Virus record (IMG/VR): IMGVR_UViG_3300035502_000179
Reading direction: 5' to 3' (one strand)
DNA: 20,000 bases
From: an uncultured virus (IMG/VR IMGVR_UViG_3300035502_000179)
Lineage: Duplodnaviria; Heunggongvirae; Uroviricota; Caudoviricetes
Part shown: positions 1 to 16,770 of the stretch, piece after piece
How the letters are laid out: every line of letters starts with the position of its first letter
Numbering within the stretch: the stretch's first letter is position 1
The notes under the pieces: model-generated
Databases searched by the model: none
What the model was told of the DNA's origin: nothing
What the model saw: only the letters and a program-made list of their open reading frames with translations
Program-made: the position numbers and the translations under genes

Positions 1-19
1 GCAGTTTCAATCTAAAAGC

Positions 20-48
20 TTGACATTTGCGATATAATGTGCTATAAT
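20..48 (+). promoter_or_regulatory. Consensus sigma70/sigmaA promoter with extended -10
   Basis: TTGACA (20-25), 17-bp spacer, TG at 40-41, TATAAT (43-48). Confidence 0.9.
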
Positions 49-57
49 AAATAAAAA

Positions 58-169
58 GTTGGTTAGGTATTGGCAGATGCCTAATGCGGGGGACAACTGA
101 ATATCTAACCGACAACTAATGTCCACATGATGGTGCTGCCACACCTGATTGTGGGCATTATTTTATTTT
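58..169 (+). ncRNA. Structured 5' leader / candidate attenuator with kissing loops (leader 1)
   Basis: Hairpin 62-70/77-85 has loop TGGCAG. An alternative 14-bp stem forms at 58-71/100-113. Hairpin 117-127/150-160 has inner stem GGTG/CACC and loop CTGCCA (136-141), followed by TTTTATTTT. Confidence 0.65.
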
Positions 170-181
170 AAGGAGACTAAC

Positions 182-496
182 ATGGGAATTTTATCATTAC
201 TTTGTAAATCTAATTACATCTGCTTCTTCCGTCCGATTGCTAAAAAACTTGGCGTTGAAGCTGCTGTCCTATTTGGTGAATTGGCTACTTGCGAAACAGT
301 TTATGGACAAGAATTTTTCATTCAGCGCGAACGACTGATGGATGCTACAATGTTATCCGAAAAACAACTGAATAAGGCATTCGCAGTATTAAAGGAAGCA
401 GGGCTACTAACAGTGACGAGAAAAGGAATGCCCGCAAAAAACTATTATAGAATAAATGAGGATGCTTTTTTAGCTAACTTTTTTGAGTATAAGTAA
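182..496 (+). CDS. Winged-helix protein resembling the N-terminal DNA-binding domain of phage replication initiators/replisome organizers (104 aa, no C-terminal domain)
   Basis: RBS AAGGAG (170-175) precedes ATG 182. The motifs IAKKLGVEAAVLFGEL, FF..RERL...TMLSEKQ...A...LKEAGLL and RKGMPAKNYYRIN are typical of this family (recognised by eye). Confidence 0.75.
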   Translation: MGILSLLCKSNYICFFRPIAKKLGVEAAVLFGELATCETVYGQEFFIQRERLMDATMLSEKQLNKAFAVLKEAGLLTVTRKGMPAKNYYRINEDAFLANFFEYK

Positions 497-501
497 TGCC
501 A

Positions 502-628
502 GTTTTGCCCCTGGGGCAAAACAAGATTTGCTCCTGGGGCAAAACAAAATAGAGAATATAATAAATAGATAATAAATATATTTTATACTTCGTATAAAAT
601 AGAGGAGCGAACTATCGTTCGCCTCTAT
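502..628. repeat. Origin-like region: two palindromic iteron-like repeats, AT-rich tract and short hairpins
   Basis: GTTTTGCCCC-T-GGGGCAAAAC (502-522) is a perfect palindrome, with a near copy 23 bp later (527-545). An AT-rich tract spans 546-600. Hairpins lie at 579-601 (TATTTTATAC ttc GTATAAAATA) and 599-628. Confidence 0.65.
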
Positions 629-749
629 TAGAAGCATACTATAAATATCTGTACAGAAATTATCTAATATATATGGCTGTTAGGATATATCCTATATACT
701 CATATAATAGGCGCGGCACGGGCACAGTGGTTACAAAATGCGCAAATGC

Positions 750-803
750 CCCTGAGAGGCTCAGAAATGCCCCACAAGCCGTTTTTATGGTTTAGATGGT
801 ATT
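750..803. repeat. Dispersed diverged repeat, copy 1 (copy 2 at 3991-4042)
   Basis: CCCTGAGAGGCTCAG is identical at 750-764 and 3991-4005. Both continue with RAATGC and, about 40 bp from the start, TTTAGATGRTATT. Confidence 0.7.
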
Positions 804-923
804 AGTATCATTTCGGGGCAAAAACGGCTTAGAAACGATTTTAAAGCCTAAATACAGATAGTAGTATTTTCGATAACTTTCTGTATTTAGCAAATTGCAC
901 AAATTTAAGGCTTAATTTTTGGC

Positions 924-952
924 TTGACAGCTAAATTAGATTATGTTAAGGT
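924..952 (+). promoter_or_regulatory. Probable sigmaA promoter for the small-gene cluster
   Basis: TTGACA (924-929), 17-bp spacer, TG at 944-945, TAAGGT (947-952). Confidence 0.6.
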
Positions 953-1012
953 ATATAATCATAGCAAGGCACTTAAATTTGATTGAGCGATACGCTCGGA
1001 AAGGTGAAAATT

Positions 1013-1045
1013 ATGGACAAATTGAGAGAGAAGGGAAGAATATGA
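1013..1045 (+). CDS. 10-aa mini-ORF (MDKLREKGRI), leader peptide or gene remnant
   Basis: RBS-like AAAGGTG about 6 nt upstream. Its TGA overlaps the next ATG (ATGA, 1042-1045). Confidence 0.35.
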   Translation: MDKLREKGRI

Positions 1046-1230
1046 TTTTAGCGAAGAATGGCGATTATACATTGGAGCAATCAGATTGCACTGGTGAATA
1101 TGCGGTACTCAAAAAAGTAAGATATCCAAGCGGAGAAGTGATGTTTCGGCAACAAATCAGTAAGTGGTATCGTTACCGTGGATGCGCAGCAATAGTTTAC
1201 CGTCAATGTTGTGGGGGAGAAAAGAAATGA
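1042..1230 (+). CDS. Hypothetical phage protein (62 aa)
   Basis: Purine-rich RBS region before ATG 1042. ATGA-coupled to the next gene. Confidence 0.7.
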   Translation: MILAKNGDYTLEQSDCTGEYAVLKKVRYPSGEVMFRQQISKWYRYRGCAAIVYRQCCGGEKK

Positions 1231-1403
1231 AAAGAAAAATAGCGGGCATAGTAATAGCATTATCCGCTATATTTAGCTTAGGCATTGTAGGTAGCGTAGA
1301 ATGCGGAGCACCATTAAGCAAGATGTTCTGGCAAATTCCAATTTTAATCTGTTTGTATGTATCAACTAATATTTATTTGAGAGGGGGAAATAACAATGAT
1401 TAA
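1227..1403 (+). CDS. Small membrane protein, two hydrophobic segments (58 aa)
   Basis: RBS GGGGGAG and ATGA overlap. Basic N-terminus MKRK followed by two hydrophobic stretches. Confidence 0.75.
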   Translation: MKRKIAGIVIALSAIFSLGIVGSVECGAPLSKMFWQIPILICLYVSTNIYLRGGNNND

Positions 1404-1698
1404 CAGTTTTGAGCTGACTCCGAATGATAGACACAAGAGTTTTTACGGCAAGACAACAGTAATATCGGATGGCAGACATTATTGGCTTCGCTCCTATAAC
1501 ACTATTGTGATGAGATATGACAGCGACAGCAACACATTCCACCGTCTATGGTGGGGTTGGAGTGCCACAACTGCAAGACACGTCGATGCCTTCCTCGCAT
1601 ACCTACATCATCACGCAATTAGTAAGTCGGAATGGGAAACTATGCCTGTTGAAGAAGATAGAACCATGTGGTGCGGTGAATGGAGGTATGCCAAATGA
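1396..1698 (+). CDS. Hypothetical phage early protein (100 aa)
   Basis: RBS GAGGGGG, overlaps both neighbours. Motifs KSFYGK, LRSYNT.V and WSATT.RH look like a conserved phage family. Confidence 0.85.
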   Translation: MINSFELTPNDRHKSFYGKTTVISDGRHYWLRSYNTIVMRYDSDSNTFHRLWWGWSATTARHVDAFLAYLHHHAISKSEWETMPVEEDRTMWCGEWRYAK

Positions 1699-1898
1699 AA
1701 AAGTGGTATAATGTGGAACTAAATGAACGTGATGCGCTTGAGTTTAGGAAATATCTGTTAGACAATAACATTAAGTTTGAGACTTCTGGATGCTTTGAAC
1801 TTGTACACTTTGAAGTATGGCTGGCTGAAGAAGAAGTGGAAAAAGTGGATAAAGTCATTGATAGAATATTTGGAGACATTATAAAGGAGGTTAAGTAA
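1695..1898 (+). CDS. Hypothetical phage protein (67 aa)
   Basis: RBS GGAGGT precedes ATG 1695, which overlaps the upstream stop (ATGA). Confidence 0.8.
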   Translation: MKKWYNVELNERDALEFRKYLLDNNIKFETSGCFELVHFEVWLAEEEVEKVDKVIDRIFGDIIKEVK

Positions 1899-1899
1899 A

Positions 1900-2541
1900 A
1901 TGACTGTGGTGGAAATTGAAGTAGTATTGCAGAAGCATTTGCTGTGGTTAGCTGGCGCCGCTGATGGGGAGAGAGCAAACTTGCATGGAGCAAACTTGTG
2001 TGAGGCAGACTTGCAGGGAGCAAACTTGTGTGAGGCAGACTTGTGTGAGGCAGACTTGTGTGGAGCAAACTTGTGTGGAGCAAACTTGTGTGGAGCAAAC
2101 TTGTGTGGAGCAAACTTGTATTGGGCAGACTTGTGTGGAGCAAACTTGTGTGGAGCAAACTTGTGTGGGGTAAGATATAACTATTCCACGGCATCATTTA
2201 ACCTGGTTTGTCCTGAGTCTGGGGCATATATCGCATATAAAAAAGTAGTAGGATTTGATGACATCCCCGTAATAGCTAAATTACAAATTCCAGAAGATGC
2301 ACTACGTTCTTCCGCTACCACAAGGAAGTGTCGAGCCAGCAAAGCTATAGTGCTGTCATTGGAAAACATAGATGGTACACCGTATCTTGGAATAGCACAC
2401 AGTAGATATGACTCAACATTTATTTATGCGGCGGGAGCGGAATTAGAAGTTAAAGATTTTGACTTAGATAGATGGAAAGAGTGCGCTGCTGGTATTCATC
2501 ATTTTATCACGCGCCATGAAGCTGAAATGTGGGATGACTAA
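1900..2541 (+). CDS. Pentapeptide-repeat protein with C-terminal DUF5758-like domain
   Basis: RBS AAGGAGG. 13 A(N/D)Lxx repeats. The C-terminus (CPESGAYIAYKK...IAKLQIPEDALRSSATTRKCRASKA...ECAAGIHHFITR.EA) matches the common phage pentapeptide/DUF5758 architecture. Confidence 0.9.
   Translation: MTVVEIEVVLQKHLLWLAGAADGERANLHGANLCEADLQGANLCEADLCEADLCGANLCGANLCGANLCGANLYWADLCGANLCGANLCGVRYNYSTASFNLVCPESGAYIAYKKVVGFDDIPVIAKLQIPEDALRSSATTRKCRASKAIVLSLENIDGTPYLGIAHSRYDSTFIYAAGAELEVKDFDLDRWKECAAGIHHFITRHEAEMWDD
1975..2169 (+). repeat. 13 x 15-bp coding tandem repeat (consensus GCAAACTTGTGTGGA)
   Basis: Directly visible. It encodes the pentapeptides. Confidence 0.95.
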
Positions 2542-2600
2542 ATAATAATAAGCCAGCGCCGGGAGAAATAAAAAAGAAAAAGAATACTAAACAACAAAGA

Positions 2601-2632
2601 GGGAGAAGCAATAATAAGCTTCTCCCATTTTT
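2601..2632 (+). terminator. Rho-independent terminator
   Basis: GGGAGAAGC-aataataa-GCTTCTCCC followed by ATTTTT, 60 bp after the gene cluster. Confidence 0.8.
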
Positions 2633-3166
2633 ATACCTATCAGCGCGGGAGAATAAAGAAAAGAAAAATAATATTTTATATTCCATAAATATATTAAAAT
2701 ATAAATAAGTAGTATAAGAGATAAGTAAATAAGCAGTAATGGAAAGCTACACGGAACAAAAATTCTGTCATCTTTTCCCTCAATTAAAAAGGAAACCGTT
2801 TGGTTTCTATGTTGACTGATGACGAGACACATGTCAAGACACCCCCACCACTCAAGGATTAGCCGTCCACCACACACATACTGAAATTCACTTCAAAGCG
2901 CAATTCCAGCCCCACAAATGCCCTATTTTCAATGGTTTTTAGGCTTCCGTGCCCCACTTTTAGCGAATTAAAGTAAGCCAGCCAACCGCCGATTATGACG
3001 GAAGACTGGCTTTATCATATATTATATATGTATATTACATACAGTTTGGAACAATTCCTGGACTCCGTGCTTCGCCGGCAATACATTATATATATAATAT
3101 GTATATATTATATAAGCAAAAAACACGTAATCCAGCACGTCAAGTTATATCACTTGACAGCAAAAT

Positions 3167-3253
3167 GCACAAAAAACCGGCTTGTTTTTTGTGCGGAATT
3201 TAAACCAAAAATTAAAAATAATTGTTGACAAATGCGGCGCAATGCACTAGTAT
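3167..3253 (+). promoter_or_regulatory. SigmaA promoter with upstream palindromic operator-like site
   Basis: GCACAAAAAAC-cggctt-GTTTTTTGTGC (3167-3194). TTGACA (3225-3230), 17-bp spacer, TAGTAT (3248-3253). Confidence 0.7.
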
Positions 3254-3310
3254 ATAGCTGTGGTCTATCTCTAACCACAACTATATGAAAAAGAAAGTAG
3301 GTAAGAAAAA

Positions 3311-3889
3311 ATGAAAAAAGTTAGTCCCCAAAATGCGCTTGAAATGGAAATTAAGCGCGGAATCCATAGCGCGGTATGGACTTATGCAGTCAATCATTCC
3401 GCTGACATGACCGCAGCTGAATTTATCACCATGATAACTCGTCTAGATAATGCTTATTTTTACGCACAAAAATTCCTGCGGGAATACATGGGGAAAACCA
3501 CATGGTTAAGCGTGGAGCTCCCCGAGTATCGCAACGCCATGCATGATAAAATAGCAGGAGCGCGTCAAGAATATGAGCACGCCAGACAAACTGTTACCCA
3601 GATTTACACCGAGGACAGACATCGGGCAATACAGGAAGCGGAAAATAATTTGGAGTCGGCAAATAACGACTTTACCGCCGCTATTGCCTCTGGAGATAGA
3701 GATGAGATACTACGTACTGGGACAGATGTTTCCAACGCGGAAAAAGCACTTATTACTTGCAATAGTACGCCAGAAATTCCCACGGACAGTTACATCGCAG
3801 AAAAATTATCGGAAATGGGCGTTGCCCTGGATTATCCTCAGCATTATCTCGACGCGGTCAACCTAGTCTGTAATACATGGACGGATTGA
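3311..3889 (+). CDS. Hypothetical alpha-helical/coiled-coil protein (192 aa) in a monocistronic cassette
   Basis: Long ORF with RBS-like AGGT, its own promoter and its own terminator. No family recognised. Confidence 0.8.
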   Translation: MKKVSPQNALEMEIKRGIHSAVWTYAVNHSADMTAAEFITMITRLDNAYFYAQKFLREYMGKTTWLSVELPEYRNAMHDKIAGARQEYEHARQTVTQIYTEDRHRAIQEAENNLESANNDFTAAIASGDRDEILRTGTDVSNAEKALITCNSTPEIPTDSYIAEKLSEMGVALDYPQHYLDAVNLVCNTWTD

Positions 3890-3897
3890 TGTATAAT

Positions 3898-3930
3898 AAT
3901 AACCCGGCTACATAGCCGGGTTATTTTTTT
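3898..3930 (+). terminator. Rho-independent terminator
   Basis: AATAACCCGGCTA-ca-TAGCCGGGTTATT followed by a T tract. Confidence 0.9.
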
Positions 3931-4182
3931 ACCTATCATGATTACTATTTGTATACATTCTATTGCAATTTAATAACAATTTGTATATAGCCCTGAGAGG
4001 CTCAGGAATGCGTTCTAACGGCTTTTTATTTTAGATGATATTCTATACCACCATACCAGGGGGGCGGGTAGAGGGCGTTTCGGCTAACTATCTAAACATT
4101 TTTCCTAATTTTCTATATTGAGTCTCGCCAATTTTATTTTTCCTAAATTTTAGGTATTGATGGGCATCGGCTTTATGTGTTT

Positions 4183-4357
4183 TCAAGTTCTACTATATAC
4201 TGTTTTACAATACTTTCTGTGACCATCATCACAAGGACAATCGCCAAATTCATCTTTATCTAATTCATCATTGTAACGACAATTATCACAATACGCATAG
4301 TTTAATCTGCTATAGATTATATCTTCTAATATCTTAGAATTTATTTTTTTCTTTCAT
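4183..4357 (-). pseudogene. Small Cys-rich protein gene frameshifted in an A7 tract
   Basis: RBS AAGGCGG, then ATG AAA GAA AAA AAT AAA TTC TAA. Removing one A gives MKEKINSKILEDIIYSRLNYAYCDNCRYNDELDKDEFGDCPCDDGHRKYCKTVYSRT (57 aa). Confidence 0.65.
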
Positions 4358-4415
4358 TTTATCCGCCTTGTCAAAAAATATTTTTTCTAATTTTTGCTAA
4401 TAGAAGGGCTTGGCT

Positions 4416-4601
4416 CTATATCTGTATATCGCACTTTAAGAATGTCACCAGTTGCGCCATACAATCTTTGCATAAATCATAAACAATAATGGTGGCTACA
4501 TTATCATATAAATCTGTATTTACCAGCTTTATTGTATTTGGTTTACCGCTATCATACCTATCATAATACTTATTACATCTATCGCACTTTAATGCTTGCA
4601 T
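4416..4601 (-). CDS. Small putative zinc-binding protein (CxxC...CxxC)
   Basis: KCDRC near the N-terminus and DLCKDC near the C-terminus, a pattern common in phage accessory proteins. Confidence 0.8.
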   Translation of the reverse strand: MQALKCDRCNKYYDRYDSGKPNTIKLVNTDLYDNVATIIVYDLCKDCMAQLVTFLKCDIQI

Positions 4602-4623
4602 AATAAAAATCTCTCTTTCTTTT

Positions 4624-5004
4624 TTATTCTCCAGCTAAATCTTCTTTAATATCTTTTTCGGTAAGTGGCATATTTAACCATGCTTTAAACCCGCAAGGCT
4701 CTTTACCTGTACGATACTTGCTATAATAACATTCATCGCAACTGTATATCCCATGGCAGTAAAATGTAATCAATTCTTCTTCATTCATTTCTTTTAGCCA
4801 ATCAAAATGTGTTTTAGGAAAATATGGTTCAAGTAGTTCGATTTCGTGTTCTACCGCCCTATCATAGCTGTCATATTCTGCCATATCGCTTGTTTTATAT
4901 TTAACTGCACAACTTACCAGCACTGTTCCATCATCTTCATATAGAGAATAATCTTTTTTGTAACTACAAATTCTTTCTTTTGCTTCTTCTTGTATAGTTT
5001 TCAT
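4624..5004 (-). CDS. Hypothetical phage protein (126 aa)
   Basis: RBS GAGGAG. The C-terminal T.FDWLKEMNEEEL...C..C...C....WL motif is typical of phage hypothetical proteins. Confidence 0.8.
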   Translation of the reverse strand: MKTIQEEAKERICSYKKDYSLYEDDGTVLVSCAVKYKTSDMAEYDSYDRAVEHEIELLEPYFPKTHFDWLKEMNEEELITFYCHGIYSCDECYYSKYRTGKEPCGFKAWLNMPLTEKDIKEDLAGE

Positions 5005-5025
5005 GTTGTACTCTCCTCAACTTTC

Positions 5026-5082
5026 TTAATTATGTGAGCAAGTATCGCAGTGGCACACCAATTCACCATTTTCATCATTCAT
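5026..5082 (-). CDS. 18-aa Cys-rich mini-ORF (MNDENGELVCHCDTCSHN), probable gene remnant
   Basis: RBS GAGGGG 8 nt upstream. It fills the gap between its two neighbours. Confidence 0.45.
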   Translation of the reverse strand: MNDENGELVCHCDTCSHN

Positions 5083-5094
5083 TTTCGTAACCCC

Positions 5095-5250
5095 TCACAC
5101 AGTTATTATGGTTATCTTGTATTCTTGCCCTGCAAGTTGGTTTACAATTCTCTCTACACTTTTGACATAGACTTTATATTTTTTGTCATCTATAAGCATA
5201 TCGCCAAAAGCACTACTACCATCAAATGTTATAGTCACTTTAGTTTTCAT
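5095..5250 (-). CDS. Hypothetical protein (51 aa, not in the ORF track)
   Basis: RBS GAGGT. Sequence MKTKVTITFDGSSAFGDMLIDDKKYKVYVKSVERIVNQLAGQEYKITIITV. Confidence 0.7.
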   Translation of the reverse strand: MKTKVTITFDGSSAFGDMLIDDKKYKVYVKSVERIVNQLAGQEYKITIITV

Positions 5251-5260
5251 AAATTATACC

Positions 5261-5650
5261 TCAATAGCTGTCATAAAAATACACATAAGCGGTTCTGTCT
5301 GATTTTAGATATTCTATAAGCCAAGTAATATTTGCTATATCTTGTGCCAAGCTGGGTAACATTTCATCATATGACCATCTACAATCTGACCAAGCATCGC
5401 CACCATCTTTTATCAGCTTAATAAGTTTACGCTGGATATCTTTTAGTTCGGGAATAGATAACTCATATGTAACATCAACAGACTCGCCTATAACATCAAT
5501 TATTTCAGCGCGAATGTTATGACACTTTCGCCAGTAACAGATTTCATAGGTGCGAACTTGTTCTAATACAGTAATCTCGTCAATATGTACCCAAGACGGC
5601 GGGTCTAAAGTTTTTCTTGTTCTCAGTGTAATGCCATTATCAAGTCCCAT
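5261..5650 (-). CDS. Hypothetical phage protein, MGLD-start family (129 aa)
   Basis: MGLD...EICYWRK...YFYDSY pattern. ATG 5650 has a GGGG RBS and overlaps the upstream gene. Confidence 0.8.
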   Translation of the reverse strand: MGLDNGITLRTRKTLDPPSWVHIDEITVLEQVRTYEICYWRKCHNIRAEIIDVIGESVDVTYELSIPELKDIQRKLIKLIKDGGDAWSDCRWSYDEMLPSLAQDIANITWLIEYLKSDRTAYVYFYDSY

Positions 5651-6125
5651 GATTTTTGCCCCTATTCTTAAATCTTTCATGGATAGATACTGCCCATCTG
5701 TATTCTCTTTCAGTAAAACCTATAAGCGTATCAGTCTTAACCCAATGGTCTACAAACTTATCGCCAAAGTATTCATCATCGACTATCACATAATTATCAA
5801 TTTCTGGATGTGTATTTAAATATTCAGCAATTTCATCTTCTCGATTAGACAATAGCCTTGTTTTACCTGCAATCTCTACTGTGTTTCTTAGCCCACCATT
5901 TATTAGGCACTCTTTGTAATTATCATGCAATCGCCAAGAAGATGTTACTACAATCTTATAGTTATATTTTTGGCAAAATTCACTTACCCACTGCACAGCA
6001 TTATAATTACTAACCTTATAGTCGGCGGTAAAATTAAAACTGTTATAGTAGTTGTCTGTAAGAATATTATAATGCCAAACCGGAGTATTTACTACACCAT
6101 CATAATCGAGAAAAATTACATTCAC
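5640..6125 (-). CDS. HAD-superfamily phosphatase (Swiss-army-knife RNA-repair-like HAD)
   Basis: Motifs VIFLDYDGVVN, IVVTSSWR, R.DEI..YL and YVIVDD. GTG 6125 follows RBS GAGGTG. Confidence 0.88.
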   Translation of the reverse strand: MNVIFLDYDGVVNTPVWHYNILTDNYYNSFNFTADYKVSNYNAVQWVSEFCQKYNYKIVVTSSWRLHDNYKECLINGGLRNTVEIAGKTRLLSNREDEIAEYLNTHPEIDNYVIVDDEYFGDKFVDHWVKTDTLIGFTEREYRWAVSIHERFKNRGKNHGT

Positions 6126-6135
6126 ACTAAACACC

Positions 6136-6339
6136 TCAAAGTTTAATATTATAGCCTTGACCTATTTGATATAATCTACTGCCTAAACCTTTAGCAAGGT
6201 TCTGTAATTCTGATTTAGTCATTTTTGATACTACTGTTTCTCTTTCTGCATCATTCATATCTGAAAAACATATTGCCTGATATTTACCCTCATGTAGTAT
6301 TCTAAAATAATAGCCATCTAAATGTCTCTGTACACTCAT
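6136..6339 (-). CDS. Hypothetical phage protein (67 aa)
   Basis: RBS AAGGGG. Motif R.LDG.YFR....GK...ICFSD. First gene of the leftward operon. Confidence 0.8.
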   Translation of the reverse strand: MSVQRHLDGYYFRILHEGKYQAICFSDMNDAERETVVSKMTKSELQNLAKGLGSRLYQIGQGYNIKL

Positions 6340-6400
6340 TTCGGCTTTAGCCCCTTTTATTTATATATTATTTATTTATTATATAATGTATAGACCCCTT

Positions 6401-6479
6401 GACCTACGAACTCAGTTCGGGGGTGGTACGAACTCAGTTCATATGAACTCAGTTCGGGGGTGAACTCAGTTCGTAGGTC
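6401..6479. repeat. Array of four palindromic 11-mers GAACTCAGTTC bounded by inverted repeats
   Basis: Copies at 6408, 6430, 6445 and 6462, flanked by GACCTAC (6401-6407) and GTAGGTC (6473-6479). An AT-rich tract lies at about 6355-6392. Confidence 0.9.
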
Positions 6480-6485
6480 TTAGGC

Positions 6486-6590
6486 AATAAAAACACCACT
6501 ATAATTTGGGTGGTGGGGGCAAATTATAGTGGCTGAGCCAGTCAAATATATCGCTCAGCTAAGTAGACCACCATACTTAATTGGCTCTTG
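6486..6590 (-). ncRNA. Structured 5' leader / candidate attenuator with kissing loops (leader 2)
   Basis: On the - strand: hairpin TAAGTA-tggtggtc-TACTTA (6579-6560), an alternative stem 6587-6574/6548-6535, and a 13-bp hairpin 6532-6520/6508-6496 whose loop contains CCACCA, followed by TGTTTTTATT. Confidence 0.65.
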
Positions 6591-6603
6591 TTTTTATGAG
6601 TAT

Positions 6604-6632
6604 AGTATAGCATATTTAGTGCTATTTGTCAA
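6604..6632 (-). promoter_or_regulatory. Leftward sigmaA promoter, extended -10
   Basis: On the - strand: TTGACA (6632-6627), 17-bp spacer, TGc, TATACT (6609-6604). Confidence 0.85.
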
Positions 6633-6676
6633 GCATAAATTTAATAAATTTAGCACTTTTTGCTTTTATACAGCAC

Positions 6677-6705
6677 TTGACAAATCCGGTTATTTATGCT
6701 ATAAT
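6677..6705 (+). promoter_or_regulatory. Rightward sigmaA promoter for terL, divergent from the leftward promoter
   Basis: TTGACA (6677-6682), 17-bp spacer, TGc, TATAAT (6700-6705). Confidence 0.88.
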
Positions 6706-6726
6706 AATCTATATTTGGGGGTAAAT

Positions 6727-7977
6727 ATGCCAGAATTTAATATAAAATTAAGCGACCATTTCATACCGAAATATTTTGATTTGGTTGATGATGTTTTAGA
6801 CCATCGTCATACACACTACAAATTATACGGGGGTCGTGGTAGCACCAAGTCATCTGCTATTAGTTTACTAATACCACTAATCATGCTGAACAATCCAAAA
6901 GTTCATGCTATTTGTTTTAGAAAAGTAGCTAATACCCTAAAGACTTCTGTATATGCACAATTAGAGTGGGCGATAGAAGAATTAGGTTGGCGAGAATATT
7001 TCAGATTTAGAACTAACCCAATGGATATAACATTCAAACCTACTGGTCAGAAAATATTATTCATGGGTTTGGATGACGCCGGTAAGATAAAATCTGTTAA
7101 AGTACCATTTGGTTACATTGGCATAACGTGGTGGGAAGAAGAAGACCAATATACAGGTGAAACAGAAATTCGTAAAGTCTTACAGTCTACTATGCGTGGC
7201 GGCGATAAGTTCTGGGACTTTAGGTCGTTTAACCCTCCTATTTCAGCAGCAAACTGGGCGAACAAAGATGTGTTATTAAATCGTGATGACACATTTGTTA
7301 TGAAGTCTTGCTACTTAGATGTGCCTAAAGAATGGCTGGGTCAAGCATTTATAGACGAAGCTGAATATCTAAAAGAGATAAATCCTAAAGCCTACCAACA
7401 CGAATATTTAGGCGATGCAATAGGCGATGGCGGTAATGTATTCGAGAATGTAAAAGCATACGTTATGCCTGATGAACTCATTAAAGAGTTCGATAGAATA
7501 TACAATGGTATTGACTGGGGATATTTCCCTGACCCATTTGTTTTTGTTCGTATGCACTTTGATGTATCAAAACGTGATTTATATATCTTTGCAGAACATA
7601 TAGCCTATAAGCAAACAAACAGAGCAGCGTTTGACCAAGTATACAATGAGCGTAAGTTAGCGAGTTTAGAAGAATTAGTTACTGCTGATAGTGCAGAACC
7701 GAAATCAATAGCAGACTTTAACGAATATGGCGCAAACTGTCGCCCCGCTGAAAAAGGAGCCGACAGTGTTACATATAGCATGAAGTGGCTCCAGGGATTA
7801 AATCACATTTACATTGACCCTAATAGATGCCCATTTACTCTTGAAGAATTTATAACTTATGAGTATGAGCGAGATAAAGATGGCAATGTTATTAGTGGTT
7901 ATCCAGATATAGGTAATCACGCGGTCGATGGAGTCAGATATGCTCTAAACCGTCACTGGAAGCGCAGAGGTAATTAA
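6727..7977 (+). CDS. terL: Terminase large subunit, PBSX/SPP1-like
   Basis: Walker A GGRGSTKS, Walker B WWEE, SFNPP motif, and nuclease residues GIDWG, ADSAEP and NHAVDGVRYA. The start is ATG 6727 (RBS GGGGG). The track's extension to 6529 runs over the promoters. Confidence 0.97.
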   Translation: MPEFNIKLSDHFIPKYFDLVDDVLDHRHTHYKLYGGRGSTKSSAISLLIPLIMLNNPKVHAICFRKVANTLKTSVYAQLEWAIEELGWREYFRFRTNPMDITFKPTGQKILFMGLDDAGKIKSVKVPFGYIGITWWEEEDQYTGETEIRKVLQSTMRGGDKFWDFRSFNPPISAANWANKDVLLNRDDTFVMKSCYLDVPKEWLGQAFIDEAEYLKEINPKAYQHEYLGDAIGDGGNVFENVKAYVMPDELIKEFDRIYNGIDWGYFPDPFVFVRMHFDVSKRDLYIFAEHIAYKQTNRAAFDQVYNERKLASLEELVTADSAEPKSIADFNEYGANCRPAEKGADSVTYSMKWLQGLNHIYIDPNRCPFTLEEFITYEYERDKDGNVISGYPDIGNHAVDGVRYALNRHWKRRGN

Positions 7978-15730: not shown

Positions 15731-16138
15731 ATGGCTGAAAAACTTAGAATTGTAGTAGATAATGTAACTCTTGAAGTCAATGATAATGGAGATACGATTG
15801 TCTTACCGCTCGGTGATGAACGGTTTATTAAGCGTGTTTACGACTACGCCGAAAAGATGCAAAACGGCGCAGAAGAATTAAGTAAAAAGCAATCAGAAGA
15901 TGATATAATTGGCACAATAACCGCTGATATAGAATATCACGATATGCTAAAAACTGAGTTCGACAGCGTGTTTGGCACTGGCGCGTACAATAAGGTATAT
16001 GGCGATAACATTGTAGTTGGCGTTGAATATATCATACAATTTATTGGCCAGATAATGCCTTATGTGCAGAAGCATCAAGCTAATCGTAGCACAAAGTTAA
16101 GTAAATACAGTGCAAATCGCACGGGGTCATCTTTATAA
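15731..16138 (+). CDS. Tail assembly chaperone
   Basis: RBS GGAGGT. Position between the major tail and tape measure genes. Motif D.VFG.GA..KV.G. Confidence 0.82.
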   Translation: MAEKLRIVVDNVTLEVNDNGDTIVLPLGDERFIKRVYDYAEKMQNGAEELSKKQSEDDIIGTITADIEYHDMLKTEFDSVFGTGAYNKVYGDNIVVGVEYIIQFIGQIMPYVQKHQANRSTKLSKYSANRTGSSL

Positions 16139-16145
16139 AAATGTT

Positions 16146-16197
16146 TGCCCACAATATGAGTAGTGGTTGCCCCACAAAAATATTGTGGGCATTTTTT
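16146..16197 (+). terminator. Terminator-like hairpin between the two chaperone genes
   Basis: Perfect 12-bp stem TGCCCACAATAT/ATATTGTGGGCA followed by T6, with inner stem GTGG-ttgcc-CCAC. Confidence 0.6.
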
Positions 16198-16206
16198 GGT
16201 GATAAA

Positions 16207-16770
16207 ATGTTTAACATATTACTTGATAAGCTACCAAATGAATATGAGGGCTATTTAATTAGACCATCTTTCAGAATTGGTATGCAAATCTGCCTTTGCA
16301 TGGACGACCCAGACTATACAGATGAAGAAAAAGCATACATATGCTTAAACCTGCTTTACGGTAATGGTGTGCCTGATATAGAGACTGCTGTTAAAGGTTT
16401 ACAATGGTTTATGGCTTGTGGTAATCCTGAACATAAAACTGTTGGCGAAAATAAAACCCTGTTTTATTGGGACTTTGATGCTGCAAGATTGTTTAGTTCA
16501 TTCAAACAAACCTACGGCATTGACTTACATAAAGTAGACTTGCATTGGTTTGAGTTTATAGCCATGATAGGCAGTTTAGATAAAGATAGCGCCTTTCAAA
16601 AGGCAGTTGAAATAAGAGGGTACGATATGAAAGACCTTAGGGGTAAACATCGTACCGATATGCAAAATATGAAGAAAAATCTGACTCCCGAAAAGAAGTT
16701 AAGTGACGAGGAGCAAAAACAACTTGACGAATTTGACCTACTTCTTGCTGGGGGTGACGTAAATGGCTGA
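16207..16770 (+). CDS. A118 Gp15-family protein (second tail chaperone)
   Basis: Motifs N.LLD.LP, I...FR, F..D...L.S.F.Q.YGIDL....LHW.EF and IR. RBS GGTGA precedes ATG 16207. Confidence 0.88.
   Translation: MFNILLDKLPNEYEGYLIRPSFRIGMQICLCMDDPDYTDEEKAYICLNLLYGNGVPDIETAVKGLQWFMACGNPEHKTVGENKTLFYWDFDAARLFSSFKQTYGIDLHKVDLHWFEFIAMIGSLDKDSAFQKAVEIRGYDMKDLRGKHRTDMQNMKKNLTPEKKLSDEEQKQLDEFDLLLAGGDVNG

What the first reader, a model, noticed from the sequence alone, without database searches (positions are those of the whole stretch)
20..6632. Two sequence-divergent leaders share one kissing-loop attenuator architecture at the head of both early operons
Seen: leader 1 (58-169, +) and leader 2 (6590-6486, -) each follow a TTGACA-17-TGnTATA(A/C)T promoter. 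In each, the 5' segment can form either a short hairpin exposing a loop (TGGCAG in leader 1, TGGTGG in leader 2) or a mutually exclusive 14-position long-range stem. A terminator-like hairpin with a T tract follows, and its loop is the exact complement (CTGCCA, CCACCA). The primary sequences differ while the pairings are preserved, which amounts to covariation within one genome. Inference: this is a cis-regulatory RNA switch family in which the 6-nt loop pair acts as a specificity code for termination versus read-through. The logic resembles P4 CI and P1 C4 RNA immunity or plasmid antisense attenuation, but I cannot assign it to a named family.
Basis: partly seen in the sequence, partly recalled or inferred. 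Interest (0 to 1): 0.85.

Follow-up and report, generated by a model that had tools for sequence, protein, structure and literature searches.

The report
Twin phage leader RNAs with terminators
Two related, roughly 110-base structured RNA leaders, each ending in a terminator whose loop matches an upstream loop, sit before two replication-origin-like DNA modules in a gut or rumen phage, and probably throttle transcription into them.

Summary
Both leaders follow consensus TTGACA-17-TGnTATA(A/C)T promoters and fold far better than shuffles (z -4.7 and -5.9). Each has a 5' strand with two exclusive partners, a short hairpin or a 14-15-bp long stem. Each ends in a strong intrinsic terminator whose loop carries the exact 6-nt complement of the 5' apical motif (UGGCAG/CUGCCA; UGGUGG/CCACCA).

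These are not shown to be "both early operons". The 6.7-kb stretch lies between terS and terL and holds two convergent operons. Each leader runs straight into an iteron plus AT-rich, origin-like module. Leader 2 precedes four GAACTGAGTTC iterons, the same as inside the phage's full-length O-like initiator gene. Leader 1 precedes a 104-aa O-like N-domain gene followed by two palindromes.

No homologue was found in Rfam, GenBank phages, IMG/VR pattern scans, about 1 Mb of related phage DNA, or by a covariance model. The two paralogues are therefore the only covariation evidence.

The long stem plus terminator is 14-18 kcal/mol more stable than any antiterminator-like fold, so termination is the predicted default.

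Best reading: paired attenuator or insulator leaders gating origin-module transcription, with a probable loop-loop contact. The mechanism is unproven. This is a new variant of a known kind, of moderate interest.

The parts
20..48 (+). Promoter P1: TTGACA, 17-nt spacer, TGcTATAAT
   Evidence: 12 of 12 hexamer matches, with TG extension
55..169 (+). Leader 1 RNA. The start is inferred at about 55, and termination in the U tract 161-169, giving about 110 nt.
   Evidence: The 5' and 3' ends are inferred from the promoter and terminator and were not measured.
58..71 (+). Leader 1 5' strand (S1). It pairs either with 77-85 (short hairpin) or with 100-113 (14-bp long stem).
71..76 (+). Leader 1 apical motif UGGCAG
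100..113 (+). Leader 1 3' strand of the long stem
117..169 (+). Leader 1 intrinsic terminator: stems 117-127:150-160 and 132-135:142-145, loop CUGCCA 136-141, U tract 161-169
182..496 (+). Gene for a 104-aa protein that matches only the N-terminal winged-helix part of O-like replication initiators
   Evidence: phrog_9773 8.5e-08, plus phrog_270, 678, 428, 186. One search found no other protein of similar length. Searches show relatives' genes are 759-807 nt.
501..600 (+). Two tandem palindromes (TTTGCYCCTGGGGCAAA at 504 and 527) followed by an AT-rich stretch 549-600. This is origin-like module 1.
   Evidence: (D9, I10, I1)
6604..6632 (-). Promoter P2: TTGACA, 17-nt spacer, TGcTATACT
   Evidence: 11 of 12 hexamer matches, with TG extension
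6486..6597 (-). Leader 2 RNA. The start is inferred at about 6597, and the end in the U tract 6494-6486.
   Evidence: The ends are inferred.
6572..6587 (-). Leader 2 5' strand (S1). It pairs either with 6565-6559 (short hairpin) or with 6550-6535 (long stem).
6568..6573 (-). Leader 2 apical motif UGGUGG (second register GGUGGU at 6572-6567)
6486..6533 (-). Leader 2 intrinsic terminator: stem 6533-6520:6508-6495, 11-nt loop 6519-6509 containing CCACCA (6516-6511), then a U tract
6408..6472 (.). Four copies of the 11-bp palindromic iteron GAACTGAGTTC / GAACTCAGTTC, starting at 6408, 6430, 6445 and 6462
   Evidence: (D2). No open frame runs across them.
6345..6400 (.). AT-rich stretch after the iterons, a putative unwinding element. 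Positions 6359-6391 form an 82% inverted repeat of 549-581.
   Evidence: I1
6136..6339 (-). First gene of the minus-strand operon (67 aa, no family assigned)
6677..6705 (+). Consensus promoter of terL, placed back to back with P2
6727..7977 (+). Terminase large subunit gene, the right border of the cassette

Best explanation
The two elements are paralogous leader transcripts of about 110 nt that work as transcription attenuators or insulators.

**Anatomy and default state.** A consensus host-type promoter fires. The nascent RNA first folds a short 5' hairpin. That hairpin is replaced by a much more stable 14-15-bp long stem as soon as the 3' partner strand emerges. About 45 nt later a strong intrinsic terminator forms. 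The predicted default is therefore termination, yielding an abundant small RNA and only a trickle of read-through.

**What lies downstream.** In both cases the next DNA is an origin-like module of iterons plus AT-rich sequence. For leader 1 this comes after a 104-aa O-like N-domain gene. For leader 2 it comes directly, as four iterons identical to those inside the phage's own full-length O-like initiator gene. The leaders therefore most likely set how much transcription enters these modules and the accessory genes behind them. All of this sits in a 6.7-kb cassette between terS and terL.

**Role of the loop complementarity.** The leader-specific 6-nt complementarity between the apical region of the 5' domain and the terminator loop most likely forms a loop-loop (kissing) contact. 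This contact would couple the fold of the 5' domain to the terminator and tune termination efficiency. In leader 1 it could also nucleate a longer antiterminator helix, 61-76 with 136-150.

**Shown versus inferred.**
- Shown: the promoters, the strand-specific structure, the alternative pairings, the terminators, the loop complementarity and the genomic context.
- Inferred: the transcript ends, actual termination, formation of the loop contact and its direction of effect, and any regulator.

**My odds.**
- About 0.85 that these are functional structured leader/terminator elements.
- About 0.4 that the loop-loop contact is what sets termination.
For: - **Promoters.** 12 of 12 and 11 of 12 hexamer matches, both with the TG extension. 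They are two of the three best promoter matches in 1-7000.
- **Structure on the sense strand.** z -4.73 and -5.94, with 0 of 200 shuffles folding as well. The antisense strands fold worse by 12.6 and 5.6 kcal/mol, as expected from the G-U pairs in the stems.
- **Folding path.** The short hairpin forms first (-10.5 and -7.7). The long stem takes over by 55-60 nt (-23.8 and -20.5). The terminator is complete at 100-105 nt.
- **Covariation between the paralogues (read).**
  - The outer 5-6 pairs of the long stem differ entirely yet still pair.
  - The core position G66/A6577 changes together with both of its partners: C81/U6562 in the short hairpin and C105/U6545 in the long stem.
  - The loops change at two positions, with compensation on both sides.
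- **Loop statistics.** Joint chance 4e-7 for random loops and 1.2e-3 for permuted loops.
- **Rarity of the architecture.** In 0.83 Mb (the G000 record plus related loci), a consensus promoter, terminator and loop complement together were found five times. Four of the five rows are these leaders: two for leader 1, one for leader 2, and one for the near-identical leader-2 copy L184. The fifth is a weak candidate in L134.
- **Leader 1 extended pairing.** Beyond the loop, 61-68 pairs with 143-150. The duplex scores -22.9, z -2.97, and 0.75% of 2000 shuffles do as well.
- **Context.**
  - The iteron motif occurs in tandem in 17 other IMG/VR contigs.
  - I tested one open frame beside or across the arrays in each of 16 of those contigs. 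Fourteen match O-like replication-initiator PHROGs.
  - The G000 record's 255-aa O-like initiator gene holds two copies plus an AT-rich stretch.
  - The AT-rich stretches of the two modules form the longest inverted repeat in 1-6800 (I1).
Against: - **No homologue anywhere searched.** Nothing matched in any search (detailed under Tried and rejected), so covariation rests on two paralogues in one genome.
- **No competitive antiterminator.**
  - Forcing the loop-loop helix as a nested helix gives -26.3 for leader 1 and -25.0 for leader 2.
  - The MFE values are -44.7 and -39.1.
  - Neither alternative 5' pairing touches the terminator stem.
- **Leader 2 complementarity is weak beyond the 6-mer.** The duplex scores -13.3, z -1.18, and 12% of shuffles do as well. 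Under composition-preserving permutation, 14.6% of loops still match.
- **Cross-pairing is not excluded**.
- **A covariance model from leader 1 alone barely finds leader 2.** It scores 14.4 bits, E 0.037, below an unrelated site at 18.3 bits.
- **Free-position background is about 10%**.
- **No expression data.** No transcript ends, no regulator and no host are known.
Confidence: 0.45

Rival explanations
1. The terminated RNAs of about 110 nt are the real product: small riboregulators acting in trans. One molecule carries both members of a complementary loop pair. Free RNA could therefore pair with nascent copies, giving autogenous, plasmid-like control of initiator synthesis and origin transcription, or immunity RNA logic as in P4 CI and P1 C4. 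It could also self-associate 'hand in hand', as phi29 packaging RNA does.
For: - Strong promoters followed at once by strong terminators predict abundant short RNAs.
- In leader 2 the 5' A tract can pair with the 3' U tract, closing a three-way junction with two long arms that carry the complementary loops.
- The terminator loops are large for terminators (6 and 11 nt), which suggests they are used.
- The genes lie beside terS and terL and before origin-like modules.
- Terminator loops are known to take part in regulation and in kissing with targets (PMC11979758, passages read).
- pRNA multimerises through intermolecular kissing between identical molecules (PMC4201828, start of abstract in the search listing only).
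Against: - No trans target with 13 or more nt of complementarity exists in the 63-kb record. Matches of 10-12 nt are roughly 2-3 times the uniform-composition expectation and none suggests a target.
- Rfam has no match to any family, sRNA and antisense families included.
- The phage has a standard terS/terL/portal set and needs no packaging RNA.
- No antisense promoter scores above 9 of 12.
Confidence: 0.2
2. These are plain insulating terminators plus 5' stabiliser hairpins. Each module starts with a strong promoter, a 5' stem that protects the RNA, and a leaky terminator. The loop complementarity and the second partner of the 5' strand would be leftovers of how the palindromic leader arose, for example by inverted duplication, and would have no function.
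For: - Other consensus promoters in this phage are also followed at +1 by a hairpin (window-oriented -516, 3225, -15173).
- Leader 1 as a whole is an imperfect palindrome: the rod structure pairs 61-95 with 120-150.
- The two modules are inverted copies of one layout.
- A free-position 6-nt complement is common, at about 10%.
- The long stem plus terminator is far more stable than any alternative.
Against: - The complementary 6-mers sit at the same structural position in both leaders, although the sequences differ at two positions on each side (joint chance 1e-3 to 4e-7).
- Both alternative partners of the 5' strand are kept in both leaders, with a three-way compensated change.
Confidence: 0.15
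3. The 5' domains are processive antitermination sites, like lambda nut (protein-dependent) or HK022 put (RNA alone). They would modify RNA polymerase so that it reads through the terminator right behind them and those further down.
For: - Two related two-hairpin leaders sit directly after two promoters and just before terminators. This is the layout recalled for nutL/nutR and putL/putR.
- The conserved 5' core UUARGUAU could be a protein or polymerase contact.
- More terminator-like hairpins lie downstream in both operons.
Against: - Complementarity to the terminator's own loop is not a feature of nut or put, as far as I recall.
- No boxA-like motif was seen in the two leader sequences.
- PHROGs or Pfam named no antiterminator-like protein among the 74 G000 proteins scanned (about 40 got no family; window genes beyond 11011 and the end of the record were not scanned).
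- No Rfam hit.
Confidence: 0.1
4. These are DNA-level features of the origin regions. The hairpins would form in single-stranded or supercoiled DNA as priming signals, cruciforms or protein sites. The 6-mers would be inverted DNA half-sites.
For: - Both elements adjoin iteron plus AT-rich modules.
- TGGCAG...CTGCCA and TGGTGG...CCACCA are inverted repeats at the DNA level, 60-65 bp apart.
- A further palindrome carrying iteron half-sites lies just upstream of P1.
Against: - The structure is clearly better on the transcribed strand, because of G-U pairs that become A-C mismatches on the other strand.
- Each element is framed by a consensus promoter and a U tract, which only makes sense for RNA.
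Confidence: 0.05
5. This is ribosome-mediated attenuation. A mini-ORF in each leader ends in or next to the 3' strand of the long stem. A translating ribosome would melt the long stem and free the 5' strand to pair with the terminator loop and 3' arm.
For: - Leader 1 has AUG77-UGA100 (7 codons) and AUG84-UAA119 (11 codons). Leader 2 has AUG6574-UGA6542 (10 codons). All were read.
- The stops fall at or inside 100-113 and 6550-6535.
Against: - There is no good Shine-Dalgarno sequence: only AGGU or AAGAG 8-10 nt upstream, and these lie inside the stems. Real genes here have AAGGAG- or GGGGG-type sites.
- The peptides are unrelated to each other.
- Short ORFs of this size are expected by chance.
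Confidence: 0.05

Closest known systems
Zipper-type transcriptional attenuator cATT of plasmid pLS20 (Gonzalez-Alvarez et al., NAR 2026, PMC13401043; abstract and first part of the Discussion read)
   Same: - It is a leader with a weak upstream stem-loop, a middle stem-loop and an intrinsic terminator.
- Upstream stem-loop sequence is complementary to terminator sequence that includes the terminator loop, giving an extended antiterminator rod.
- The upstream stem-loop is the most conserved part.
- Leader 2 has a matching middle hairpin (GCUGAGC/GCUCAGC), and both leaders can form such a rod.
   Different: - In pLS20 the 3' arm of the upstream hairpin pairs with the 5' arm and loop of the terminator, the two folds have similar energies, and antitermination is the default.
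- Here the 5' arm plus loop pairs with the terminator loop plus 3' arm, and the rod is 14-18 kcal/mol worse than the terminator fold.
- Here a 14-15-bp long stem sequesters the 5' strand first.
- The context is a phage origin-like module, not a conjugation operon.
Countertranscript-driven attenuation of rep mRNA in plasmids pT181, pIP501 and pAMbeta1 (recalled)
   Same: - A rep-gene leader carries a terminator.
- The choice of fold is set by a loop-loop (kissing) RNA contact.
- The purpose is replication control.
   Different: - In the plasmids the partner loop is on a separate antisense RNA made from the opposite strand.
- Here no antisense promoter scores above 9 of 12, and both loops are on the same sense transcript.
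- No Rfam ctRNA family matched.
P4 CI and P1/P7 C4 immunity RNAs (recalled)
   Same: - The small RNA comes from the leader of the operon it controls.
- Short complementary boxes lie within the same transcript.
- Specificity is changed by compensated differences of a few nucleotides.
   Different: - Those RNAs are cut out by RNase P from a tRNA-like fold and pair with targets upstream and downstream to cause termination or block translation.
- Here the RNA would end at its own terminator, and the complement is the terminator loop itself.
- ARAGORN finds nothing tRNA-like, and Rfam gives no match.
HK022 putL/putR and lambda nutL/nutR (recalled)
   Same: Two related structured RNA sites sit right behind two promoters and ahead of terminators. 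Their structure was originally supported by differences between the two copies.
   Different: - put and nut do not pair with the terminator.
- They act on RNA polymerase.
- No such activity or factor is shown here.
phi29-family packaging RNA (PMC4201828; start of abstract in the search listing only; other details recalled)
   Same: - It is an RNA of about 110-120 nt made from a strong promoter.
- Two loops on two arms are complementary to each other.
- Loop sequences differ between relatives while complementarity is kept.
- The gene lies beside the packaging genes.
   Different: - pRNA belongs to protein-primed podoviruses that lack a terS/terL terminase.
- This phage has terS, terL and portal.
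- No Rfam match.
- The loops here are 6 nt, and one of them is a terminator loop.
Guanidine-II (mini-ykkC) riboswitch (recalled)
   Same: It is a cis-regulator built from two hairpins whose loops kiss.
   Different: Its loops are conserved ACGR tetraloops that bind a ligand. Here the loops differ between the two copies and are plain Watson-Crick complements.
Lambda pR-tR1-O/ori arrangement and transcriptional activation of ori-lambda (recalled)
   Same: The order is promoter, then a terminator that limits read-through, then an O-type initiator gene with iterons and an AT-rich region. Transcription into the origin matters for initiation.
   Different: - In this phage the functional-looking O-like gene lies 28 kb away and has no such leader.
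- The modules behind the two leaders are a truncated O-like N-domain with different palindromes, and a gene-free iteron array.

Membership tests
Terminator/antiterminator transcription attenuator (generic) | Promoter-proximal intrinsic terminator (G+C-containing hairpin followed by a U tract) ahead of the first gene | tested here: met
   The hairpins score -20.1 and -15.4 kcal/mol and are followed by UUUUAUUUU and GUUUUUAU.
Terminator/antiterminator transcription attenuator (generic) | An alternative fold that overlaps the terminator stem and can compete with it | tested here: inconclusive
   The short hairpin and the long stem do not touch the terminator. A rod that uses the loop and 3' arm exists but is 14-18 kcal/mol less stable than the MFE. 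It is significant for leader 1 only.
Terminator/antiterminator transcription attenuator (generic) | A sensed signal (protein, RNA, ribosome, ligand) | not testable with these tools
   No candidate regulator was identified. The mini-ORFs lack good ribosome-binding sites.
Zipper-type attenuator (pLS20 cATT) | Weak upstream stem-loop, central long stem-loop, then the terminator | tested here: inconclusive
   A weak upstream hairpin is present in both leaders (-10.5 and -7.7). Leader 2 has a 7-bp central hairpin, but leader 1 has no strong one.
Zipper-type attenuator (pLS20 cATT) | The 3' arm of the upstream hairpin is complementary to the 5' arm and loop of the terminator, extending the central stem | tested here: not met
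   Here the main complementarity runs from the 5' arm plus loop of the upstream hairpin to the loop plus 3' arm of the terminator.
Zipper-type attenuator (pLS20 cATT) | Terminator and antiterminator folds have similar free energy, and the antiterminator is the default | tested here: not met
   -44.7 against -26.3 for leader 1, and -39.1 against -25.0 for leader 2.
Countertranscript (antisense RNA) attenuation, pT181/pIP501 type | A promoter on the opposite strand inside or just after the leader that makes a complementary small RNA | tested here: not met
   The best opposite-strand match near either leader is 9 of 12 (188-160), no better than in shuffles.
C4 / P4 CI antisense RNA family (Rfam) | Match to the family covariance model | tested here: not met
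   No family reached its gathering score. No match with E below 0.3 overlaps the leaders, even in short-input scans.
phi29-type packaging RNA (Rfam) | Match to the family model, and a phage without a terS/terL terminase | tested here: not met
   No Rfam match. terS, terL and portal are all present.
HK022 put / lambda nut antitermination sites | Makes RNA polymerase terminator-resistant (put), or has boxA/boxB bound by N and Nus factors (nut) | not testable with these tools
   This needs transcription assays. No antiterminator-like protein was named among the proteins scanned.
Lambda-O-type replication origin (for the DNA behind leader 2) | An array of repeated initiator-binding iterons followed by an AT-rich stretch, with the same iterons associated with an O-like initiator | tested here: met
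   - Four iterons plus an AT-rich stretch are present.
- The same motif lies inside the G000 record's 255-aa O-like gene.
- It lies inside or beside O-like frames in 14 of 16 other contigs tested.
- Binding and origin firing were not tested.

The most novel reading that the evidence does not exclude
Each origin-like module would be guarded by a 'self-addressed' kissing-loop attenuator. The 6-nt loop pair would be a private address, so that terminated leader RNA accumulates and feeds back only on nascent copies of its own leader. This would set how often transcription enters that origin or makes the truncated initiator. It would amount to an antisense-free, same-strand version of plasmid copy-number control operating in a lytic-type phage.
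Probability: 0.15. Interest if true: 0.8.

Novelty: new variant of a known kind. Interest (0 to 1): 0.5.

Why it matters
- If the loop contact is functional, this would be a terminator whose own loop is the regulatory receiver for an upstream hairpin on the same transcript. That design is not among described attenuators, and it comes with two natural, orthogonal-looking versions in one genome.
- It would also tie RNA-level gating to phage replication origins.
- The element is compact (about 110 nt, host RNA polymerase only). This makes it easy to test and potentially useful as a pair of insulated genetic parts.
- If the loops turn out to be inert, the result is still useful. It documents a terS-terL cassette carrying a spare iteron array and a truncated initiator, each behind a promoter-terminator gate.

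Tried and rejected
**Database and homologue searches**
- Rfam: the whole window at E up to 1 gave 5 weak hits, none in the leaders. Short-input scans of 40-190 and 6340-6610 at E up to 10 gave only noise.
- GenBank phages: megablast and blastn of 1-6760 gave no match. tblastn with the 104-aa protein gave 16 records at 45.7% identity or less. The two I inspected (PMBT5, Ld17) are not syntenic with a leader. The HAD-domain protein gave only matches below 60% identity, mostly in large phages of Gram-negative hosts (Klebsiella, Vibrio, Aeromonas).
- Relatives found through terL:
  - 80 IMG/VR loci were kept of 92 found, 80 metagenome loci of 103, and 7 loci came from genome contigs.
  - The best non-self identity was 67%.
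  - No leader-like sequence appeared by blastn, by a core-motif regex over 1.10 Mb, by inspecting promoters upstream of terL, or in 17 terS-terL inserts.
- IMG/VR pattern scans built on the shared core gave 13 and 26 loci. All are unrelated except one near-identical copy.
- The 104-aa protein has only itself among proteins of 57-182 residues in the 5.8-billion-cluster collection; the 'longer' and 'shorter' length classes were not searched.

**Covariance model**
- MAFFT could not align the 3' strands of the two leaders consistently with the structure.
- I therefore built a model from leader 1 alone.
- It finds leader 2 only at E 0.037 and finds nothing at E up to 1 in 0.876 Mb.
- A model search of IMG/VR itself is not possible with these tools.

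**Other checks**
- Trans targets: sliding RNAduplex was uninformative, and there is no exact complement of 13 nt or more.
- Sequencing runs: none was listed for 1-6760, and no RNA holder was listed.
- Alternative genetic codes do not open the non-coding gaps.
- No tRNA-like gene is present.

**Considered and rejected by eye**
- Recalled consensus motifs were compared.
- None fits: ANTAR dual hexaloops (A1/G4), RAT, TRAP (G/U)AG repeats, HutP UAG repeats, or CsrA GGA loops.

Full report
**1. What is there**

The window is the minus strand of positions 5689-25688 of a 63,262-base IMG/VR virus record, called G000 here, estimated 88% complete.

P1 (20-48, +) and P2 (6632-6604, -) are TTGACA, a 17-nt spacer, then TGnTATAAT or TGnTATACT. 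With the terL promoter at 6677-6705, they are the three best sigma-70-type matches in 1-7000: 12, 11 and 12 of 12, all with the TG extension.

Both leaders fold into a 5' long hairpin plus a terminator hairpin.
- Leader 1: MFE -44.7 kcal/mol, z -4.73.
- Leader 2: MFE -39.6 kcal/mol, z -5.94.
- None of 200 shuffles of either leader folded as well.
- The opposite strands fold worse: -32.1 (z -2.95) and -34.0 (z -1.85).

The stems contain several G-U pairs, so the better fold on the sense strand points to RNA of the transcribed strand rather than a DNA palindrome.

**2. Anatomy**

Leader 1:
- The 5' strand 58-71 pairs with 100-113, a 14-bp long stem.
- Alternatively, 63-70 pairs with 77-84 as a short hairpin. 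RNAfold extends this to a GGCA tetraloop closed by U71-G76.
- The terminator has stems 117-127:150-160 and 132-135:142-145, separated by a symmetric UGAU/UGAU internal loop.
- Its loop is exactly CUGCCA (136-141), and UUUUAUUUU follows.

Leader 2:
- 6587-6582 and 6580-6572 pair with 6540-6535 and 6550-6542.
- Alternatively, 6580-6574 pairs with 6565-6559, with loop UGGUGGUC. A 7-bp hairpin GCUGAGC/GCUCAGC can form alongside this alternative.
- The terminator is 6533-6520:6508-6495 with an 11-nt loop, CCCCCACCACC, followed by GUUUUUAU.
- The loop offers two registers: UGGUGG with CCACCA, and GGUGGU with ACCACC.

Prefix folding shows the order of events.
- The short hairpin forms first (-10.5 and -7.7).
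- The long stem takes over by 55-60 nt (-23.8 and -20.5).
- The terminator is completed about 45 nt later.

**3. Is it more than chance?**

With the hairpins held fixed, a random terminator loop carries the complement with probability 1.6e-4 for leader 1 and 2.5e-3 for leader 2, jointly 4e-7. Permuting the actual loop letters gives 0.008 and 0.146, jointly 1.2e-3.

If the position of the complement is left free, the event is common.
- 77 of 694 terminator-like hairpins in G000 plus 80 related loci have a 6-nt loop complement within about 100 nt upstream, against 59 of 694 with reversed loops.
- A second detector gave 103 of 907 against 93 of 907.

The argument therefore rests on both complements sitting at the same structural place. 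In 0.83 Mb, a consensus promoter, terminator and loop complement together gave five rows. Four are these leaders: two rows for leader 1, one for leader 2, and one for the near-identical leader-2 copy in L184. The fifth is a weak candidate in L134.

The two leaders are paralogues, not unrelated sequences.
- They share the 5' core UUARGUAU.
- Around that core, the outer 5-6 pairs of the long stem are entirely different yet still paired.
- Core position G66/A6577 changes together with both partners: C81/U6562 and C105/U6545.
- The loops differ at two positions, compensated on both sides (read).

**4. Limits of the switch idea**

Neither alternative pairing of the 5' strand overlaps the terminator. 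The long stem leaves five (leader 1) or four (leader 2) of the six motif bases outside its terminal pairs, in a weakly structured apical region of 21-28 nt. A loop contact is therefore possible in the ground state too.

Forcing the loop-loop helix as a nested helix yields a rod. In leader 1 this rod also pairs 61-68 with 143-150, 78-81 with 132-135, and 91-95 with 120-124. It is 18.4 kcal/mol (leader 1) and 14.1 kcal/mol (leader 2) less stable than the long stem plus terminator.

The extended 5'-domain/terminator complementarity is significant only for leader 1.
- Leader 1: -22.9, z -2.97, with 0.75% of 2000 shuffles doing as well.
- Leader 2: -13.3, z -1.18, with 12% doing as well.

Specificity is asymmetric. 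The cognate 6-mers score -8.4 each. UGGUGG with CUGCCA scores -5.1, and UGGCAG with CCACCA scores -1.9. The leader-2 5' domain pairs with the leader-1 terminator region at -16.9. Termination is thus the predicted default, and a factor or kinetic effect would be needed for read-through.

**5. Context changes the story**

The gene just upstream of P1 (window-oriented -431..-51) is a small terminase subunit: Pfam Terminase_2 at 2.8e-11 and phrog_51 at 3.2e-13. terL is 6727-7977. The 6.7 kb between them therefore forms a cassette with two convergent operons, 182-3889 on the plus strand and 6339-4416 on the minus strand.

Among 80 metagenomic terL relatives, 40 have a terS homologue upstream. The terS-terL gap runs from under 0.1 kb to 6.6 kb, and 19 of the 40 gaps exceed 1 kb. 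This junction therefore often holds extra DNA. None of the cassette proteins recurs there except one weak match.

Immediately behind the leader-2 terminator lie four copies of the 11-bp palindrome GAACTGAGTTC (6408-6472) and an AT-rich stretch (6345-6400). No open frame crosses them.
- An IMG/VR scan for two tandem copies found 18 loci: one near-identical copy of this phage and 17 others.
- I sent one open frame beside or across the arrays from each of 16 of those 17 (L187, the same as L182 over the stretch shown, was left out).
- Fourteen match 'replication initiation O-like' PHROGs, and two (L180, L191) match nothing.
- L185 carries the same initiator N-terminus as G000 and is therefore not independent.

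G000 itself has a 255-aa O-like initiator at window-oriented -28436..-27669. It contains two of these iterons plus an AT-rich stretch. DnaC-like and DnaB-like proteins, primase, SSB and a polymerase follow it. Its own upstream region has a promoter and a small 5' hairpin but no such leader (locus L185).

Behind leader 1 comes a 104-aa protein that matches only the N-terminal DNA-binding part of O-like initiators. It has no BLAST similarity to the 255-aa protein. Two different palindromes follow it at 504-543, and then an AT-rich stretch 549-600. Positions 549-581 form an 82% inverted repeat of 6359-6391, the longest inverted repeat in 1-6800.

Both leaders therefore head the same layout: promoter, leader with terminator, iterons, AT-rich DNA. 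The two copies lie in inverted orientation.

**6. Search for relatives**

Nothing was found.
- Rfam gave no match, and GenBank phages gave none.
- blastn, a regex and manual inspection of about 1.1 Mb of related loci found nothing.
- Two IMG/VR pattern scans returned 38 unrelated loci of 39.
- The protein next to leader 1 is alone among proteins of 57-182 residues in the 5.8-billion-cluster collection; longer and shorter length classes were not searched.
- A covariance model built from leader 1 alone found leader 2 at only 14.4 bits, E 0.037, below an unrelated site. It found nothing at E up to 1 in 0.876 Mb.
- MAFFT could not produce a structure-consistent alignment of the two leaders, so a two-sequence model was not built.
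- No sequencing run was listed.

**7. Mechanism**

The best-supported reading is a pair of attenuator or insulator leaders that let only a controlled fraction of transcription from two very strong promoters enter origin-like modules and the accessory genes behind them. Those genes include a pentapeptide/DUF5758 protein and a HAD_SAK_2 protein.

The loop pair most likely makes a kissing contact between two roughly parallel helices joined by a 1-3-nt linker. The helix heights are about 16 and 14 base-pair layers in leader 2, and about 14 and 19 in leader 1. This geometry is my inference from the secondary structures. Whether the contact raises or lowers termination cannot be told from sequence.

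The rivals, with my odds, are listed below.

| Rival | Odds |
|---|---|
| The short RNAs are the product and act in trans or self-associate | 0.2 |
| Inert leftovers on plain insulating terminators | 0.15 |
| nut/put-like antitermination sites | 0.1 |
| DNA-level origin features | 0.05 |
| Leader-peptide attenuation | 0.05 |

**8. Comparison with known systems**

- The nearest described logic is the zipper-type attenuator of pLS20 (PMC13401043; abstract and part of the Discussion read). There, upstream hairpin sequence pairs with the terminator's 5' arm and loop. Two of its three listed defining features were tested and not met here (which strands pair; the energy balance), and the third was inconclusive.
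- Countertranscript attenuation lacks its antisense promoter here.
- The C4/P4 CI and phi29 pRNA families give no Rfam match, and their contexts differ.
- put, nut and the guanidine-II riboswitch are functional analogies only, recalled from memory.
- Terminator loops taking part in regulation and kissing have precedent in sRNAs (PMC11979758, passages read).

**9. Verdict**

This is a new variant of a known kind, seen so far in one phage lineage. Interest is moderate, and it would be high if compensatory loop mutants behave as predicted.

Noticed in passing
window 6345-6479: A gene-free array of four GAACTGAGTTC iterons plus an AT-rich stretch. The same iterons lie inside the phage's 255-aa O-like initiator gene 28 kb away. 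This could be a second origin or an initiator-titrating site.
   Followed up: yes
window 182-600: A 104-aa protein equal to only the N-terminal domain of O-like initiators. Two palindromes (504-520, 527-543) and AT-rich DNA follow its stop codon. It looks like a truncated second rep/ori of different specificity.
   Followed up: partly
window-oriented -431..7977 (G000 record): terS and terL are separated by a 6.7-kb cassette. In 19 of the 40 related loci that have a terS hit, the terS-terL gap exceeds 1 kb (up to 6.6 kb), so this junction often holds extra DNA.
   Followed up: partly
window 725-860 and 3966-4100 (+): A direct repeat of about 60 nt with an identical 15-nt core, CCCTGAGAGGCTCAG (750-764 and 3991-4005), and a second shared block, TTTAGATGRTATT. 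Both copies lie in non-coding DNA, and the function is unknown.
   Followed up: partly
L001 1897-1921 (- strand; window-oriented about -21..+4): A perfect 10-bp hairpin, GGAACTCTAC-gatta-GTAGAGTTCC, lies between the terS stop and the -35 of P1. Its arms carry the iteron half-sites GAACTC and GAGTTC.
   Followed up: no
window 77-119 and 6574-6542: Mini-ORFs of 7, 11 and 10 codons lie inside the leaders and end at or within the 3' strand of the long stems. They have no convincing ribosome-binding site.
   Followed up: partly
window 1943-2188: Eleven tandem 15-nt units lie inside the 213-aa gene, as expected for its pentapeptide repeats (Pfam Pentapeptide plus DUF5758).
   Followed up: partly
G000 window-oriented -516, 3225, -15173: Other consensus promoters of this phage are followed right at the predicted transcript start by a 10-15-bp hairpin, possibly 5' stabilisers. 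The one at -516 is followed by a T-rich run.
   Followed up: no
window 16136-16240: This site shares a 12-nt identity with the 3' arm of the leader-1 terminator and scores 18.3 bits with the leader-1 model. Matches of 12 nt came to 3, against under 1 expected by my own uniform-composition estimate, so I cannot call it more than chance.
   Followed up: partly
window 3898-3925: A strong terminator (12 bp, 6 G-C) ends the plus-strand operon. About 490 nt of non-coding DNA follows before the end of the convergent minus-strand operon.
   Followed up: no
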